From: Bacilli bacterium
Lineage (GTDB): Bacteria > Bacillota_I > Bacilli_A > RFN20 > CAG-826
DNA: 64,000 bases
Assembly: GCA_045631885.1 (NCBI GenBank)
Contig: JAZQVN010000013.1
Location: 21,242-85,241, forward strand
Direction of reading: 5' to 3'
Shown one piece after another: positions 4,091-7,016 of the stretch. The position numbers and the translations under genes are program-made. How positions within the stretch are numbered: position 1 is the stretch's first letter; the number at the start of each line of letters is the position of its first letter. The notes beneath the pieces are model-generated. The model made no database searches. It was given only the letters and a program-made list of their open reading frames with translations, and was not told the origin of the DNA.

Positions 4091-4402
4091 TTATAATTTG
4101 AATTCGATATCAACTCCTGCTGCGAGATCGAGATTCTTGAGAGCATCAATTGTCTCTTTCTTTGGATTTAAGATATCGATGATACGTTTGTGTGTTCTGA
4201 TTTCGAATTGTTCACGGGAATCCTTATATTTGTGAACAGCTCTTAAAATCGTATAAACTTGTTTTTCCGTGGGTAGCGGAATAGGACCCACAACGGTAGC
4301 CCCAGTCTTTTTCGCTGCTGCGACGATCTTTTCAGCGGCAACATCTAAGTTGACGTGATCGTAAGCTTGTAAGCGAACCCTGATTTTGGTAGCTTTTGCC
4401 AT
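4091..4402 (-). CDS. rpsJ: 30S ribosomal protein S10
   Basis: [16 protein letters not shown]...[35 protein letters not shown] is the S10 signature. Confidence 0.95.
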
Positions 4403-4530
4403 GAATTGAATTTCCTCCTATCACTTTCAGGCTTTGACTTGTCTCTCTACTTGCGAATTACCTGATGACACCTTCATGACAACGCTTGTGGGTGTATCAG
4501 CAACCTCGCACATCAACGCGAGCAGTCAAC
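4403..4530 (-). promoter_or_regulatory. 5' untranslated leader of the S10 operon with predicted stem-loops
   Basis: The leader runs from the predicted TSS to the rpsJ RBS. It contains the hairpin CUCGC-GUUGAUGU-GCGAG and a direct TGTCAT repeat. It is a plausible site for autogenous r-protein control. Confidence 0.4.
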
Positions 4531-4536
4531 GTTCAA

Positions 4537-4565
4537 ATCATACCCCCTTCGCGTATATGTGTCAA
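4537..4565 (-). promoter_or_regulatory. Sigma-A type promoter of the S10 operon (-35 TTGACA, 17-nt spacer, -10 TATGAT)
   Basis: Reading the minus strand gives TTGACA-catatacgcgaaggggg-TATGAT. The hexamers map to plus coordinates 4565..4560 and 4542..4537. The promoter lies about 130 nt upstream of the rpsJ ATG. Confidence 0.6.
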
Positions 4566-4869
4566 TAATATTTTTAAATAAATTAAAAGAAAAGAAATTG
4601 GGCACGTAAAATAACTATCGATAATTCGGTAATTTTTGCCTAAAAATATGGAGAGGAAACAACTTTTTACTAACAAAAAACCGATTTTTTTCGCTCATTT
4701 TTTGATATTTTTGACCTAAAAATCAGCAAGAAAAAGGCGATTAAAAAATGGTGATTTCCTATATATACTTAATTATCTTCTAAAACGTATGTTTATCAGG
4801 AAAATACCATATTTAATGCTTTGCATTATTTTGTGGATTTATTTTGTGTTTTGTTTTACAATAATTTTG

Positions 4870-5217
4870 TTCAACAAGCATAGCCTTTTAAACGCGCCAG
4901 CAGCCCAAGAATGAAATACTTCTAGAGTAGGCTCCGACTGACTAAAACGTGAGAAAGTGACTAATTTATGAACTGGTAAGATGGATGTGTTAGGTCTTAC
5001 CAATGTGGAAAGTATCGCCCAGCGTGATATGCGGGCATAAGTAGAAGGGGTCGCATGGTAGACGCTCTTATGTTCAAGATGATCACCGCGCTCCACACAG
5101 TTTTATCTGAGCATGTGGCCATCACGAGGATGATGAAACACCAGTAGCTATAGTTGATAGGGATATCTTCTGTTAGTTACACTAGGTGTTTTCATTATGG
5201 TGATGGCTTTTATTATC
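4870..5217 (+). ncRNA. Candidate structured non-coding RNA of about 350 nt with unknown family. It is GC-enriched and ends in a long terminator hairpin.
   Basis: Region 4890-5110 is about 48% GC against about 25% in the flanking intergenic DNA. It contains several stems, for example GGTAAGA-13nt-TCTTACC. A long imperfect hairpin spans 5117-5210, with outer stem GCCATCAC/GTGATGGC and inner arms GATGAAACACC/GGTGTTTTCATT, and is followed by TTTTATT. A possible -10 TACAAT sits at 4857-4862. No convincing ORF is present. Confidence 0.3.
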
Positions 5218-5408
5218 TCCTTTTGAGAACACTATGTTGTTCGAGTTTAAGAAAGGAGATTTTTTAATGGAAAGAGTGACCATAAATAACAGTGGTTAAT
5301 TAATGCCGAAGCAGGATTAATTTGGCAGTTTTATACAATGTATAAATTTTAAAAATGGATTAGCAACAACTTGTTGCAGAATCAACCGATAAATAAGGAG
5401 GATAGCTA

Positions 5409-7016
5409 TTGAGAGAAGCATTACGAAAACTAGGGTTAAACAACCGCTACAGATTTGAAGCCGTATTTTCCCGATTTGCCACTACACAAGAACATATTGA
5501 AGGGAAAGAGGCAATTCTTCTATTGGATGTAAAAAGAGGAAACAAATTAGTAGCCAACCATCTTTGGTTATGTAGAATCCAAGAATTCAAAAAACTGAAT
5601 TTGAAAGAGGGAGATATAGTCTCATTCACAGCCCGAATCAATATGTATAGAAGATTCAAAAATCAAAGAAAACTAATCGATTTTGGATTATCAAATCCAA
5701 TGCATGTTTATAAAGTCAACAAGGAGGAAATTACAATGACTGAAAACACAAACTTAGTCACAAAAGTATACGTGACAAACAAATTTAAGCTAGAGGTAAA
5801 TTTAGATCTACAAGAGAGAGAATTTTGGCTTTCCCAAGAAGAACTAAGCTTAATTTTTGATACGCCATCAAAGACAATTTACAGAATTCTTTTGGAAATA
5901 GAAAAAAGCGTAAAATCTACCCTACAGACCCCAAAAATGAGAATTATGAAAAATGGAAGGAAGGTTAATGCTTATAGTTCATATTTCTTCAAAGAACTAA
6001 ACAAGAGATTTGCAAATGAAATAAGCAGAGATTTTGAAAACTGGGTAAAATTGATATTTCAAACTGAAGAATTAAATTCATACGAAATAGTTACATTTAA
6101 TCAAGATAATTTATCGCTTGATATTCGCATTTCTCCAGATCATGAAACGGTTTGGATGAACCAAGATGAAATTGCTGAATTGTTCGGAACAGTAAGAACA
6201 AATATAACCACTCACATTAACAATATTTTTGAACAAAGTGAGTTAGAAAAAGTTTCAGTTCGTCAATTTTTCTTACAAACTGGAAACGACGGAAAACAAT
6301 ATGAGGTCGAATACTACAATTTGGATATGATTTTGTCCATTGGCTATCGTGTTAATTCAAAACGCGGTATCGCATTTAGAAAATGGGCAAATCAAATCTT
6401 GAAAGACTATTTAATTAAAGGTTACGCGCTCAATGAAAAGAGATTGACTTCACTTGGCAAAACAGTTGAAATCCAAAACAAAATGCTAGCCAGTTCTCTT
6501 GGTGTTGATTATCAAGAGCTTTCAAATGTAATTGGCGAATACACTCGAGCTTTAAATCTTTTGGATGACTATGATCATCAAGAACTAGTTAAGCCAAGTG
6601 GGAACAAAACAACTTATCAATTAACTTATGAAGATGCTAGAAACATTATCAATAAAATGGAATTCAACAAAACATCCGATTTATTTGGTAGAGAAAAGGA
6701 AGAAGGGAAACTAGAAGGCATTTTAGCAGTCGTCCATCAATTTGTATTTGGACAAGAAGTTTATCCATCATTGGAAGAAAAAGCAGCCCATCTACTTTAC
6801 TTCCTAGTCAAAGACCATCCATTCTATGATGGTTGTAAAAGAATAGCGGCGACACTATTCCTTGAATTTTTAAATAGAAACGGCGCACTAGTCAAAAATG
6901 GACAATTAACCATTTCTAACGATGCATTAGTAGCAATCACATTATTGACTGCAGAAAGTAATCCTGATGAAATGGAAATTATCGTATCAGTAATTATGAA
7001 TCTCTTGGTTCATTAG
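5409..7016 (+). CDS. RhuM-family virulence-associated protein fused to a Fic/Doc domain, with a unique about 109-aa N-terminal extension (or an alternative start at 5736)
   Basis: ...IGYRVNSKRGIAFRKWANQILKDYLIKGY is the RhuM signature. The C-terminal ...HPFYDGCKR... is a Fic/Doc motif variant. A TTG start at 5409 has an AGGAGG RBS. An in-frame ATG at 5736 is preceded by a second strong AGGAGG with an 8-nt spacer. Confidence 0.8.
   Translation: MREALRKLGLNNRYRFEAVFSRFATTQEHIEGKEAILLLDVKRGNKLVANHLWLCRIQEFKKLNLKEGDIVSFTARINMYRRFKNQRKLIDFGLSNPMHVYKVNKEEITMTENTNLVTKVYVTNKFKLEVNLDLQEREFWLSQEELSLIFDTPSKTIYRILLEIEKSVKSTLQTPKMRIMKNGRKVNAYSSYFFKELNKRFANEISRDFENWVKLIFQTEELNSYEIVTFNQDNLSLDIRISPDHETVWMNQDEIAELFGTVRTNITTHINNIFEQSELEKVSVRQFFLQTGNDGKQYEVEYYNLDMILSIGYRVNSKRGIAFRKWANQILKDYLIKGYALNEKRLTSLGKTVEIQNKMLASSLGVDYQELSNVIGEYTRALNLLDDYDHQELVKPSGNKTTYQLTYEDARNIINKMEFNKTSDLFGREKEEGKLEGILAVVHQFVFGQEVYPSLEEKAAHLLYFLVKDHPFYDGCKRIAATLFLEFLNRNGALVKNGQLTISNDALVAITLLTAESNPDEMEIIVSVIMNLLVH

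What the first reader, a model, noticed from the sequence alone, without database searches (positions are those of the whole stretch)
5409..7016. RhuM-Fic/Doc fusion with a non-canonical active-site motif (HPFYDGCKR) and a duplicated N-terminal RhuM module, placed divergently from the S10 promoter
Seen directly: two consecutive RhuM-N-like segments are present (..KVYVTNKFKLEVNLDLQEREFWLSQEEL.. and ..EIVTFNQDNLSLDIRISPDHETVWMNQDEIAELFG..), then the RhuM core (KWANQILKDYLIKGY), then a Fic/Doc core. In the Fic/Doc core the Doc motif H-x-F-x-D-G-N-K-R has Cys in place of Asn.

Established knowledge: Doc phosphorylates EF-Tu, and Fic proteins AMPylate targets.

Inference: the Asn to Cys change may alter or abolish nucleotide transfer. 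A strong internal AGGAGG-ATG at 5722-5738 suggests two isoforms, or that the first 109 aa are a distinct regulatory domain. Its location next to the translation-apparatus operons is notable for a putative translation-targeting toxin, and no adjacent antitoxin gene is visible.
Basis: partly seen in the sequence, partly recalled or inferred. Interest (0 to 1): 0.5.

Follow-up and report, generated by a model that had tools for sequence, protein, structure and literature searches.

The report
Expanded RhuM–Doc toxin-like gene with RNA leader

Summary
The ORF 5409-7016 (+) exists and has the described features. It is an expanded member of the annotated RhuM/Fic/DOC family (PADLOC candidate PDC-S23).

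- **Architecture:** OB-fold domain (aa 1-104), two diverged copies of the RhuM N-terminal winged-helix module (hhalign probability 99.1%), a helical stalk, and a Doc-type Fic domain.
- **Motif:** HPFYDGCKR aligns exactly with Doc's HxFxD(A/G)NKR. Cys476 is invariant in the 120 closest homologues and marks a monophyletic clade. More distant family members keep Asn. It is therefore neither a sequencing variant nor unique.
- **Selection:** the Doc domain is the most constrained part (dN/dS about 0.02).
- **Internal start:** the AGGAGG-ATG is conserved, and 427-aa relatives start at that Met.
- **Antitoxin:** no antitoxin ORF is present. Two things were missed:
  - A structured leader RNA (Rfam RF02941, COG3943 RNA, 5087-5189; really about 4972-5266) ends in a hairpin that sequesters a Shine-Dalgarno sequence and looks like a terminator.
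  - In three related loci the OB domain is a separate gene 2 nt downstream of a short RhuM-Doc gene.
- **Location:** the position beside the S10 operon is conserved in this lineage, but relatives lie elsewhere.

Verdict: a new variant of a known kind, of moderate interest.

The parts
5409..7016 (+). Complete ORF, 535 aa, TTG start: OB domain, wHTH, wHTH, helical stalk, Doc-type Fic domain.
   Evidence: Whole-gene dN/dS is 0.10 against an 82%-identical relative.
5395..5401 (+). Shine-Dalgarno AAGGAGG for the TTG start at 5409 (7-nt spacer).
   Evidence: Read directly from the sequence. The closest relative L098 also has AGGAGG plus a TTG start.
5409..5720 (+). N-terminal OB-fold domain (aa 1-104; strand order b1-b2-b3-helix-b4-b5).
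5722..5738 (+). Internal AGGAGG (5722-5727) plus in-frame ATG (5736-5738, Met110), lying in the disordered linker (aa 105-112).
   Evidence: Met is conserved in 15 of 16 long forms, with Val in the other. An SD-like sequence plus ATG is present in 5 of 5 long-form DNAs. The 427/428-aa relatives start at this Met. The linker has pLDDT below 50.
5736..6077 (+). Module 2 (aa 110-223): extra, diverged copy of the RhuM N-terminal winged-helix module.
   Evidence: hhalign against module 3 gives probability 99.1%, E 1.6e-18. The AF2 secondary structure mirrors module 3. dN/dS 0.32.
6078..6359 (+). Module 3 (aa 224-317): canonical RhuM N-terminal module. The full-length PDC-S23 match starts here.
   Evidence: Pfam PF13310 covers aa 286-350. 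PADLOC PDC-S23 covers aa 224-534, E 9e-124.
6360..6575 (+). Long helical stalk (aa 318-389), including the invariant EYTxALxLLDDYDHQ segment.
   Evidence: AF2 helices at 318-364 and 368-389. Invariant columns in 120 sequences.
6606..7013 (+). Doc-type Fic domain (aa 400-535).
   Evidence: Pfam Fic. Foldseek to Doc 3k33_A, TM 0.76. TIGR01550 scores 30.5 bits, below its cut-off of 38.65. dN/dS 0.02.
6816..6842 (+). Active-site motif HPFYDGCKR (aa 470-478). The Cys476 codon is at 6834-6836.
   Evidence: Aligned to Doc HIFNDANKR. C476 is invariant in 120 of 120 sequences and is the only conserved Cys in the protein. The Cys clade is monophyletic.
4972..5266 (+). Structured leader RNA. The Rfam COG3943 core is at 5087-5189. 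A 5' extension adds hairpin 4974-5002 and a long-range helix 5004-5013/5088-5097. The terminal hairpin is 5216-5224/5251-5259, followed by a U-run at 5260-5265.
   Evidence: Rfam RF02941 scores 89.8 bits, cut-off 71.8. On a nine-sequence alignment, 61 pairs are 95.9% paired against 40-53% when slid, and 25 pairs show compensatory changes. MFE z-score -4.66. The terminal hairpin folds at -14.7 kcal/mol.
5267..5299 (+). Mini-ORF MERVTINNSG*. It starts at the SD and ATG that serve as the real gene start in short-form relatives.
   Evidence: Alignments A3 and A8. The peptide is not conserved: relatives have 3-10 aa, or a 67-aa YhcG fragment in L001.
4403..4565 (-). S10-operon leader and promoter (TTGACA at 4565-4560, TATGAT at 4542-4537), divergent from the gene. 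Listed as context, not part of the system.
   Evidence: about 100% conserved across three loci. Weak S10-Clostridia leader hit.

Best explanation
Shown by the evidence:
- The ORF is an intact gene under purifying selection in the RhuM/Fic/DOC family (PADLOC candidate PDC-S23).
- It is an expanded form. An SSB-like OB-fold domain and a second, diverged copy of the RhuM N-terminal winged-helix module have been added in front of the standard 310-320-aa core (winged helix, helical stalk, Doc-type Fic domain).
- Cys476 replaces the central Asn of the Doc motif throughout one monophyletic clade of the family.
- The gene lies behind a structured leader RNA (COG3943 motif) whose last hairpin pairs an anti-SD with an SD. 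In this locus the hairpin is followed by a U-run.
- In some relatives the OB domain is a separate gene 2 nt downstream of a short RhuM-Doc gene.

Inferred:
- The Doc domain is an active phosphotransferase of the Doc type. The Lys at motif position 8, which in P1 Doc forces inverted ATP binding and kinase chemistry, is retained. The domain would act as a growth-arresting toxin or defence effector.
- Cys is a tolerated, roughly isosteric substitute for the loop-stabilising and phosphate-contacting Asn.
- The enzyme is restrained by its own nucleic-acid-binding N-terminal modules rather than by a Phd-type antitoxin. These modules include the fused OB partner and would act as sensor or auto-inhibitor.
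- The leader RNA also restrains the gene. It gates translation where the gene starts inside the hairpin, and gates transcription read-through here.
- The position beside the S10 operon is a lineage-specific insertion site, not a functional link.
For: - Family membership. The RhuM-DOC fusion was noted in PMC3710099.
- Doc-type fold and motif register.
- Catalytic residues H, F, D, G, K, R and C476 invariant in 120 of 120 sequences.
- Strongest constraint on the Doc domain (dN/dS 0.02, against 0.17-0.32 for the added modules).
- Monophyletic Cys clade (56 sequences), with 35 DGNKR relatives of the same architecture.
- Lys at position 8 means kinase chemistry: PMC4177925.
- Asn-to-Ser tolerated repeatedly in EcFicT-like proteins; roles of the Asn: PMC5033356.
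- OB fold.
- Module duplication.
- OB as a separate, coupled downstream gene in L103, L118 and L120.
- Leader RNA with covariation and an SD-sequestering hairpin.
- The gene's own SD and ATG lie inside that hairpin in short and mid forms.
- A U-run follows the hairpin only where the cargo start is displaced (5 of 5 loci against 0 of 4).
- The same leader precedes another defence-candidate family, YhcG = PDC-S02.
- No conserved antitoxin ORF in eight syntenic loci.
- No hydrophobic segment or signal peptide.
Against: - No biochemical data exist for any Cys-clade member that I could identify.
- PDC-S23 is an untested 'guilt-by-embedding' candidate (bioRxiv 2024.01.29.577857). This gene is not embedded in a restriction or defence locus.
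- Stable vertical inheritance at a fixed housekeeping locus is unusual for a defence toxin.
- The central Asn contacts ATP in canonical Fic enzymes, so Cys could change substrate or chemistry.
- The OB partner gene was seen in only 3 loci, and in 0 of 80 loci from the genome scan.
- The main ORF in the window has its own strong SD, 142 nt beyond the leader's U-run, so control by the leader here rests on an inferred terminator.
- The inter-domain arrangement of the model is unreliable (pTM 0.42).
Confidence: 0.5

Rival explanations
1. The Doc domain is a catalytically dead pseudo-enzyme, because Asn-to-Cys removes nucleotide binding. The protein is then essentially a multi-domain DNA- or RNA-binding regulator that uses the Doc fold for protein binding.
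For: The central Asn contacts ATP in canonical Fic enzymes (PMC5033356). Three nucleic-acid-binding modules precede the domain. The gene is stably inherited at a housekeeping locus. TIGR01550 scores below its cut-off.
Against: His, Asp, Lys and Arg of the motif are invariant, and so is the Cys itself. The Doc domain has the lowest dN/dS, 0.02. Ser, nearly isosteric with Cys, replaces this Asn repeatedly in EcFicT-like proteins (PMC5033356). BifA, which has the same domain architecture, needs its motif His for activity (PMC6529018).
Confidence: 0.12
2. The gene is a self-contained two-isoform system. Initiation at 5409 gives the OB-containing long form, and initiation at the internal SD-ATG (5736) gives a 426-aa form. 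The OB-bearing isoform, or the OB domain in cis, neutralises the shorter active isoform in the manner of an antitoxin.
For: An internal SD-like sequence plus ATG is conserved in 5 of 5 long-form DNAs, and Met in 15 of 16 proteins. Relatives of 427/428 aa start at this Met. The linker is disordered. OB occurs as a separate coupled gene in L103, L118 and L120.
Against: The linker is rich in Lys, Glu and Arg, so purine-rich SD-like strings arise from the coding sequence alone. The conserved Met may be only a relic of the fusion event. There is no expression data. An OB fold is not a known antitoxin fold.
Confidence: 0.12
3. The COG3943 RNA acts in trans as a stand-alone small RNA, or as an RNA antitoxin of the type III kind that binds the protein, rather than as a cis leader.
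For: Rfam classes it as an sRNA. In the window it is followed by a hairpin plus U-run and lies 220 nt from the gene, which has its own SD. Four metagenome loci have the RNA followed only by a 4-codon ORF and a T-run. The protein carries OB and winged-helix modules that could bind RNA.
Against: In short and mid forms the gene's SD and start codon lie in the 3' arm of the RNA's last hairpin. The RNA always has the same orientation and distance to its varied cargo genes. It lacks the tandem repeats typical of type III antitoxins.
Confidence: 0.08
4. The protein is a secreted host-targeting virulence factor like BifA of Streptococcus equi subsp. zooepidemicus.
For: BifA has the RhuM-N plus Fic architecture and a catalytic His247 at the position expected for a 313-aa short form. 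It is reported to enter endothelial cells and trigger moesin phosphorylation (PMC6529018).
Against: There is no signal peptide or hydrophobic segment. The N-terminal modules bind nucleic acids. The family occurs in many free-living and commensal phyla. It has a cytoplasmic-type leader-RNA control. The closest relatives are gut, rumen and faecal metagenome bins.
Confidence: 0.05

Closest known systems
RhuM/Fic/DOC family: NCBI 'virulence protein RhuM/Fic/DOC family protein'; PADLOC phage-defence candidate PDC-S23; RhuM-DOC fusions noted by Anantharaman et al. 2013 (PMC3710099)
   Same: aa 224-534 match the PDC-S23 models end to end (E 9e-124). The order is the same: RhuM-N module, stalk, Doc domain. 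Relatives carry that product name on plasmids.
   Different: This gene has about 223 extra N-terminal residues (an OB fold plus a second RhuM-N copy), seen in only about 19 protein clusters. It is not embedded in a restriction or BREX locus. It carries the Cys variant of the motif.
P1 Doc of the Phd-Doc type II toxin-antitoxin system
   Same: Same fold (TM 0.76, 26% identity). The motif register is H-x-F-x-D-(A/G)-x-K-R, with the Lys that specifies kinase chemistry (PMC4177925).
   Different: The central Asn is Cys. There is no upstream Phd-like gene. The domain is the C-terminus of a 535-aa multi-domain protein. The Doc family model TIGR01550 scores below its cut-off.
BifA (SeseC_01334) of Streptococcus equi subsp. 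zooepidemicus (PMC6529018)
   Same: N-terminal RhuM domain plus C-terminal Fic domain, with a catalytic His at residue 247, the position expected in a short form of about 313 aa.
   Different: BifA is described as a secreted virulence factor acting on host moesin. I could not obtain its sequence, so its motif (Cys or Asn) is unknown. It lacks the OB and extra winged-helix modules.
COG3943 RNA motif (Rfam RF02941; Weinberg et al. 2017, PMC5737381)
   Same: Full-length match at 89.8 bits, directly upstream of a COG3943 (RhuM) gene.
   Different: Conservation and covariation extend about 115 nt upstream and about 75 nt downstream of the 108-nt model. The extension includes a partner strand for the model's 'unpaired' 5' end and an SD-sequestering hairpin. 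Here a mini-ORF and 109 nt separate it from the gene.
EcFicT-like Fic toxins with Asn-to-Ser in the motif (PMC5033356)
   Same: Precedent for replacing the central motif Asn with a small polar residue, repeatedly and without loss of the loop hydrogen bond.
   Different: These are Fic rather than Doc subtype, and are part of two-gene FicTA modules. The replacement is Ser, not Cys.

Membership tests
Fic/Doc (Fido) superfamily, Doc subtype | Alpha-helical Fic/Doc core fold | tested here: met
   Pfam PF02661 scores 44 bits, cut-off 24. Foldseek to Doc 3k33_A gives TM 0.76, probability 1.00.
Fic/Doc (Fido) superfamily, Doc subtype | Motif positions H1, F3, D5, G/A6, K8 and R9 of HxFx(D/N)(A/G)NKR | tested here: met
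   H470, F472, D474, G475, K477 and R478 align to Doc and are invariant in 120 of 120 sequences.
Fic/Doc (Fido) superfamily, Doc subtype | Central Asn at motif position 7 | tested here: not met
   The residue is Cys476 (TGT at 6834-6836). Cys is found in 120 of 120 close homologues, while Asn is kept in 35 more distant family members.
Fic/Doc (Fido) superfamily, Doc subtype | Curated Doc family model TIGR01550 above its cut-off | tested here: not met
   30.5 bits against a cut-off of 38.65.
Fic/Doc (Fido) superfamily, Doc subtype | Kinase activity on EF-Tu or another target | not testable with these tools
   Needs biochemistry.
Phd-Doc type II toxin-antitoxin module | Small antitoxin gene directly upstream, in an operon with the toxin | tested here: not met
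   Only non-conserved mini-ORFs lie upstream, and queH is convergent downstream. The same holds in eight syntenic loci.
Fic proteins with an inhibitory helix (classes I-III) | Conserved (S/T)xxxE(G/N) motif | tested here: not met
   There is one match, SRDFEN at aa 206, in a non-conserved stretch of module 2.
RhuM (Pfam PF13310) | Match to the family model | tested here: met
   83 bits against a cut-off of 33.7, but only profile positions 4-71 of 252 are matched. The C-terminal RhuM part is replaced by the Doc domain.
PADLOC PDC-S23 | Full-length match to the candidate's protein model | tested here: met
   E 9.4e-124; aa 224-533 against profile positions 4-323 of 327.
PADLOC PDC-S23 | Embedded in or adjacent to a defence system (restriction type I, BREX, DISARM); anti-phage activity | tested here: not met
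   The neighbours are the S10 operon, queH, queA, tgt and prs. The three short-form loci examined are also not in restriction loci. Anti-phage activity is untested in the source paper (bioRxiv 2024.01.29.577857).
COG3943 RNA (Rfam RF02941) | Covariance-model score above the gathering threshold, upstream of a COG3943 gene | tested here: met
   89.8 bits against 71.8, model positions 1-108, + strand, upstream of the gene. Also met in 9 related loci.
OB-fold nucleic-acid-binding domains | Five-stranded barrel, b1-b2-b3-helix-b4-b5 | tested here: met

The most novel reading that the evidence does not exclude
The COG3943 RNA is a ligand- or signal-sensing switch that gates a set of otherwise antitoxin-less, single-gene toxin or defence cargos: RhuM-Doc, the YhcG nuclease, and several small proteins. 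In that reading this gene is a fused 'toxin plus OB partner' version of a two-gene RhuM-Doc/OB system. The clade-defining active-site Cys would give the Doc domain new chemistry or redox control.
Probability: 0.15. Interest if true: 0.75.

Novelty: new variant of a known kind. Interest (0 to 1): 0.45.

Why it matters
RhuM/Fic/DOC proteins are widespread and carry a 'virulence' label, yet they are essentially uncharacterised. They are listed only as untested anti-phage candidates. This locus offers three concrete handles on them.

1. A natural Asn/Cys split at the catalytic loop of a Doc-type enzyme, with matched relatives of both kinds. This allows direct mutational tests of what the central motif residue does.
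2. A candidate partner protein, a small OB-fold protein found either fused at the N-terminus or as a coupled downstream gene. It could explain how a Doc-like toxin is controlled without Phd.
3. An orphan structured RNA (COG3943 motif) that turns out to be a portable leader with an SD-sequestering end. It sits in front of several unrelated cargo genes, two of them defence candidates. That makes its regulatory role testable.

If none of this holds, the gene is simply a lineage-specific expanded member of an annotated family.

Tried and rejected
- Separate OB gene in L002: this locus seemed to show the OB domain as a 128-aa gene upstream of a 410-aa gene. I rejected this. The split is a frameshift in an A-run, and reading through it restores the long form.
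- Remnants of the OB domain in 427-aa loci: tblastn found none.
- More long-form loci: the search for related loci with the OB alignment failed because no stretch was conserved enough.
- Organism and source contig: the look-up of P0001 found nothing and cluster names were empty. The organism is therefore known only as a low-GC member of the Bacilli, judged from the titles of related bins.
- Literature: 'PDC-S23' gave no hits. No supplement is held for Weinberg 2017. The two primary Doc kinase papers are not held, so the role of Doc Asn72 rests on reviews.
- AFDB fold search: the library was unavailable.
I assessed it by folding instead.
- Restriction-locus embedding: not seen in the five contexts I inspected.
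- Rfam over the whole window: nothing found other than the COG3943 RNA.
- Inhibitory-helix motif: only one non-conserved match.
Full report
**Observation.** The ORF 5409-7016 (+) is real. It encodes 535 aa from a TTG start, preceded by AAGGAGG at 5395-5401. Pfam finds RhuM (aa 286-350, E 2e-23) and Fic (aa 405-488, E 4e-11), both above their curated cut-offs. PADLOC's candidate PDC-S23 matches aa 224-534 end to end (E 9e-124). The motif HPFYDGCKR (aa 470-478; 6816-6842) aligns column for column with P1 Doc HIFNDANKR and with HCFYNANKR of 9vzc. An AlphaFold2 model (pLDDT 82.6) superposes on Doc 3k33_A with TM 0.76. The Cys therefore sits exactly at the central Asn position of the Doc motif.

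**The cysteine.**
- All 120 closest homologues carry HPFxDGCKR.
- C476 is one of only two cysteines in the protein and the only conserved one. H470, F472, D474, G475, K477 and R478 are also invariant.
- A scan of one genome per species found at least 584 relatives across many phyla.
- Members at 50% identity or above carry HP(F/Y)xDGCKR. Members at 40-48% identity have the same architecture but the canonical H(S/A)FxDGNKR.
- In a neighbour-joining tree of 91 cores, the 56 Cys sequences are monophyletic and the 35 Asn sequences are paraphyletic. The rest of the motif context is nearly identical in both.
- Cys is thus a single derived, fixed change. It is neither an error nor unique to this gene.
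- Against an 82%-identical relative, dN/dS is 0.02 for the Doc domain, 0.06 for the RhuM module plus stalk, 0.32 for module 2 and 0.17 for the OB domain. dS is near saturation for the Doc domain, so that value is approximate.
- Reviews state that Lys at motif position 8 is what makes Doc a kinase, by forcing inverted ATP binding (PMC4177925). The central Asn contacts ATP and hydrogen-bonds the motif Phe amide, and Asn-to-Ser has arisen repeatedly in EcFicT-like proteins (PMC5033356).
- I infer that the Doc domain is active and that Cys is a tolerated, possibly functionally tuned, replacement. This is not shown.

**N-terminal modules.** Three length classes exist:
- About 310-320 aa: the standard core.
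- About 427 aa: one extra module.
- About 535-555 aa: a further 109 aa at the N-terminus.

An exhaustive profile search finds 2073 cluster representatives of this OB domain. Most are stand-alone proteins of 105-130 aa, and a few are fused to HTH, recombinase or S1 domains. One lies between the terminase and portal genes of a phage.

In three metagenome loci (L103, L118, L120) a stand-alone OB gene of this family starts 2 nt after the stop of a short RhuM-Doc(Cys) gene. The same partner therefore occurs both fused and as a coupled neighbour, which argues for a functional link. This arrangement is rare: 0 of 80 loci from the genome scan have it.

**Internal start.** AGGAGG at 5722-5727 and ATG at 5736 lie in the only disordered linker (aa 105-112). 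Met is conserved in 15 of 16 long forms. An SD-like sequence plus ATG is present in all five long-form DNAs examined. The 427/428-aa relatives start at this Met. Two isoforms are plausible but untested, because the Lys/Glu-rich linker would produce purine-rich strings in any case.

- Rfam RF02941 (COG3943 RNA) matches 5087-5189 (+) at 89.8 bits against a cut-off of 71.8. It is the only Rfam hit in the whole window.
- It is present in every syntenic relative and upstream of some short forms at unrelated loci.
- Conservation extends beyond the 108-nt model. There is a 5' hairpin (4974-5002), and a long-range helix (5004-5013 with 5088-5097) that pairs the model's 'unpaired' 5' end. There is a further helix (5117-5123 with 5202-5208) and a terminal hairpin in which TCTCCTTTT (5216-5224) pairs with GAAAGGAGA (5251-5259).
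- On nine sequences, 61 pairs are 95.9% paired, against 40-53% when the partners are slid. Twenty-five pairs show compensatory changes, against 3-7 when slid. The structure was derived from the same alignment, which inflates these numbers somewhat.
- The region folds well (z-score -4.66).
- In short forms, and in one 427-aa form, the gene's own SD and start codon lie in the 3' arm of that hairpin.
- In the window the same SD and ATG open a 10-codon mini-ORF (5267-5299), and the real gene starts 109 nt after the mini-ORF's stop codon (5297-5299) with its own SD.
- A U-run follows the hairpin in the five loci where the cargo start is displaced, and in none of the four where it is not. This suggests a shift from translational control to termination control. 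It is an inference from small numbers.

**Other cargo behind the same leader.** A metagenome scan for the RNA core found 44 loci, one of them a GC-rich false positive. At a fixed distance downstream lie:
- RhuM-N or RhuM-Doc(Cys) genes (18 loci).
- YhcG/DUF1016 nucleases (3 loci), which are PADLOC candidate PDC-S02.
- Several small-protein families.
- In some loci, only a 4-codon ORF.

The RNA thus behaves as a portable cis leader for diverse cargo.

**Genomic context.** The gene lies between the divergent S10 operon (rpsJ 4091-4402, minus strand; promoter-like site at 4565..4537) and the convergent queH-queA-tgt genes. This position is conserved in eight related contigs holding mid or long forms. 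Short-form relatives sit among unrelated genes, on plasmids and rarely in phage-like contigs. No conserved antitoxin-like ORF flanks the gene in any syntenic locus. The gene's GC content is 32.9% against 36.2% for the window.

**Mechanism and rivals.** My best reading (confidence about 0.5) is a Doc-type phosphotransferase toxin or effector. It would be controlled in cis by its nucleic-acid-binding N-terminal modules, including the fused OB partner, and by the leader RNA. The four rivals, with their confidences, are given under rival explanations: a dead enzyme acting as a regulator, a two-isoform self-neutralising system, a trans-acting or antitoxin RNA, and a BifA-like secreted effector (PMC6529018).

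**Relation to what is known.** RhuM-DOC fusions were described in 2013 as probable toxins in restriction-linked defence loci (PMC3710099). NCBI names them 'virulence protein RhuM/Fic/DOC family protein'. PADLOC lists them as an untested candidate derived from guilt-by-embedding (bioRxiv 2024.01.29.577857). The RNA motif is in Rfam. As far as I could find, these points are new:
- The OB plus double winged-helix expansion.
- The fused-or-adjacent OB partner.
- The clade structure of the Asn/Cys change.
- The extended RNA architecture with its varied cargo.

I rate this a new variant of a known kind, with interest 0.45.

**Limits.** There are no biochemical or expression data. The organism is unidentified. 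BifA's motif is unknown. The inter-domain geometry of the model is unreliable (pTM 0.42). The role of Doc's Asn is taken from reviews and from Fic enzymes.

Noticed in passing
window 4972-5086 and 5190-5266: The COG3943 RNA is conserved and shows covariation well beyond the 108-nt Rfam model. There is a 5' hairpin, and a long-range helix whose 3' strand is the model's 'unpaired' GCUCCACA. There is also an alternative partner (GATGGCT, 5202-5208) for GGCCATC (5117-5123), which could compete with the model's local hairpin.
   Followed up: partly
L100-L143 (metagenome loci holding the RNA core pattern): The same leader RNA, with SD and ATG at a fixed distance, precedes unrelated cargo. This includes YhcG/DUF1016 PD-(D/E)XK nucleases (PADLOC PDC-S02), at least four small-protein families without Pfam hits (108, 117-119 and 135 aa, plus a 'MEQQLKEYF...' family), and sometimes only a 4-codon ORF followed by a T-run.
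   Followed up: partly
window 5260-5265; L001, L002, L083, L086 compared with L008, L044, L059, L085: A U-run follows the SD-sequestering hairpin only in loci where the cargo gene's start has been displaced downstream (5 of 5 loci). It is absent where the gene starts inside the hairpin (0 of 4).
   Followed up: partly
L001 5676-5879: Between the leader RNA and the long-form gene lies a 67-aa ORF with a weak DUF1016_N hit, starting at the leader's SD and ATG. It looks like a remnant of a YhcG cargo gene, which suggests cargo replacement behind the RNA.
   Followed up: no
L103 compared with L128: Two loci have near-identical RhuM-Doc genes but differ downstream. L103 has the coupled OB gene. L128 has a pair of small ORFs that, from memory, resemble a BrnT/BrnA toxin-antitoxin pair.
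   Followed up: no
window 4403-4565 (- strand): The region upstream of rpsJ is almost 100% identical across three loci whose proteins are only about 57-64% identical. It is presumably the S10 leader and promoter. Only a weak hit to Rfam's S10-Clostridia leader was found (18 bits, cut-off 35).
   Followed up: no
window 4857-4880; L098 120-150: A -10-like box (TACAAT or TATAAT) followed by a conserved TTTGTTCAA lies about 100 nt upstream of the conserved RNA block. The segment 4880-4970 is partly conserved among the syntenic loci, so the leader transcript may be about 395 nt long.
   Followed up: no
L086 4811-8247: In one syntenic relative, three polysaccharide-biosynthesis genes (epimerases) are inserted between the RhuM-Doc gene and queH. 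This intergenic site therefore accepts insertions.
   Followed up: no
L095 5001-5384: A stand-alone homologue of the OB domain (127 aa) lies between the terminase and portal genes of a phage-like contig.
   Followed up: no
L097 6025-6825 (Lachnospira eligens megaplasmid NC_012780.1): A 55%-identical family member is annotated as two adjacent ORFs, 'RhuM family protein' and 'Fic family protein'. It is either a disrupted gene or a natural split.
   Followed up: no
L002 5940-6000: The long-form gene of this relative is broken by a frameshift in an A-run, giving apparent 128-aa and 410-aa ORFs. This is either an assembly error or a real pseudogene.
   Followed up: partly
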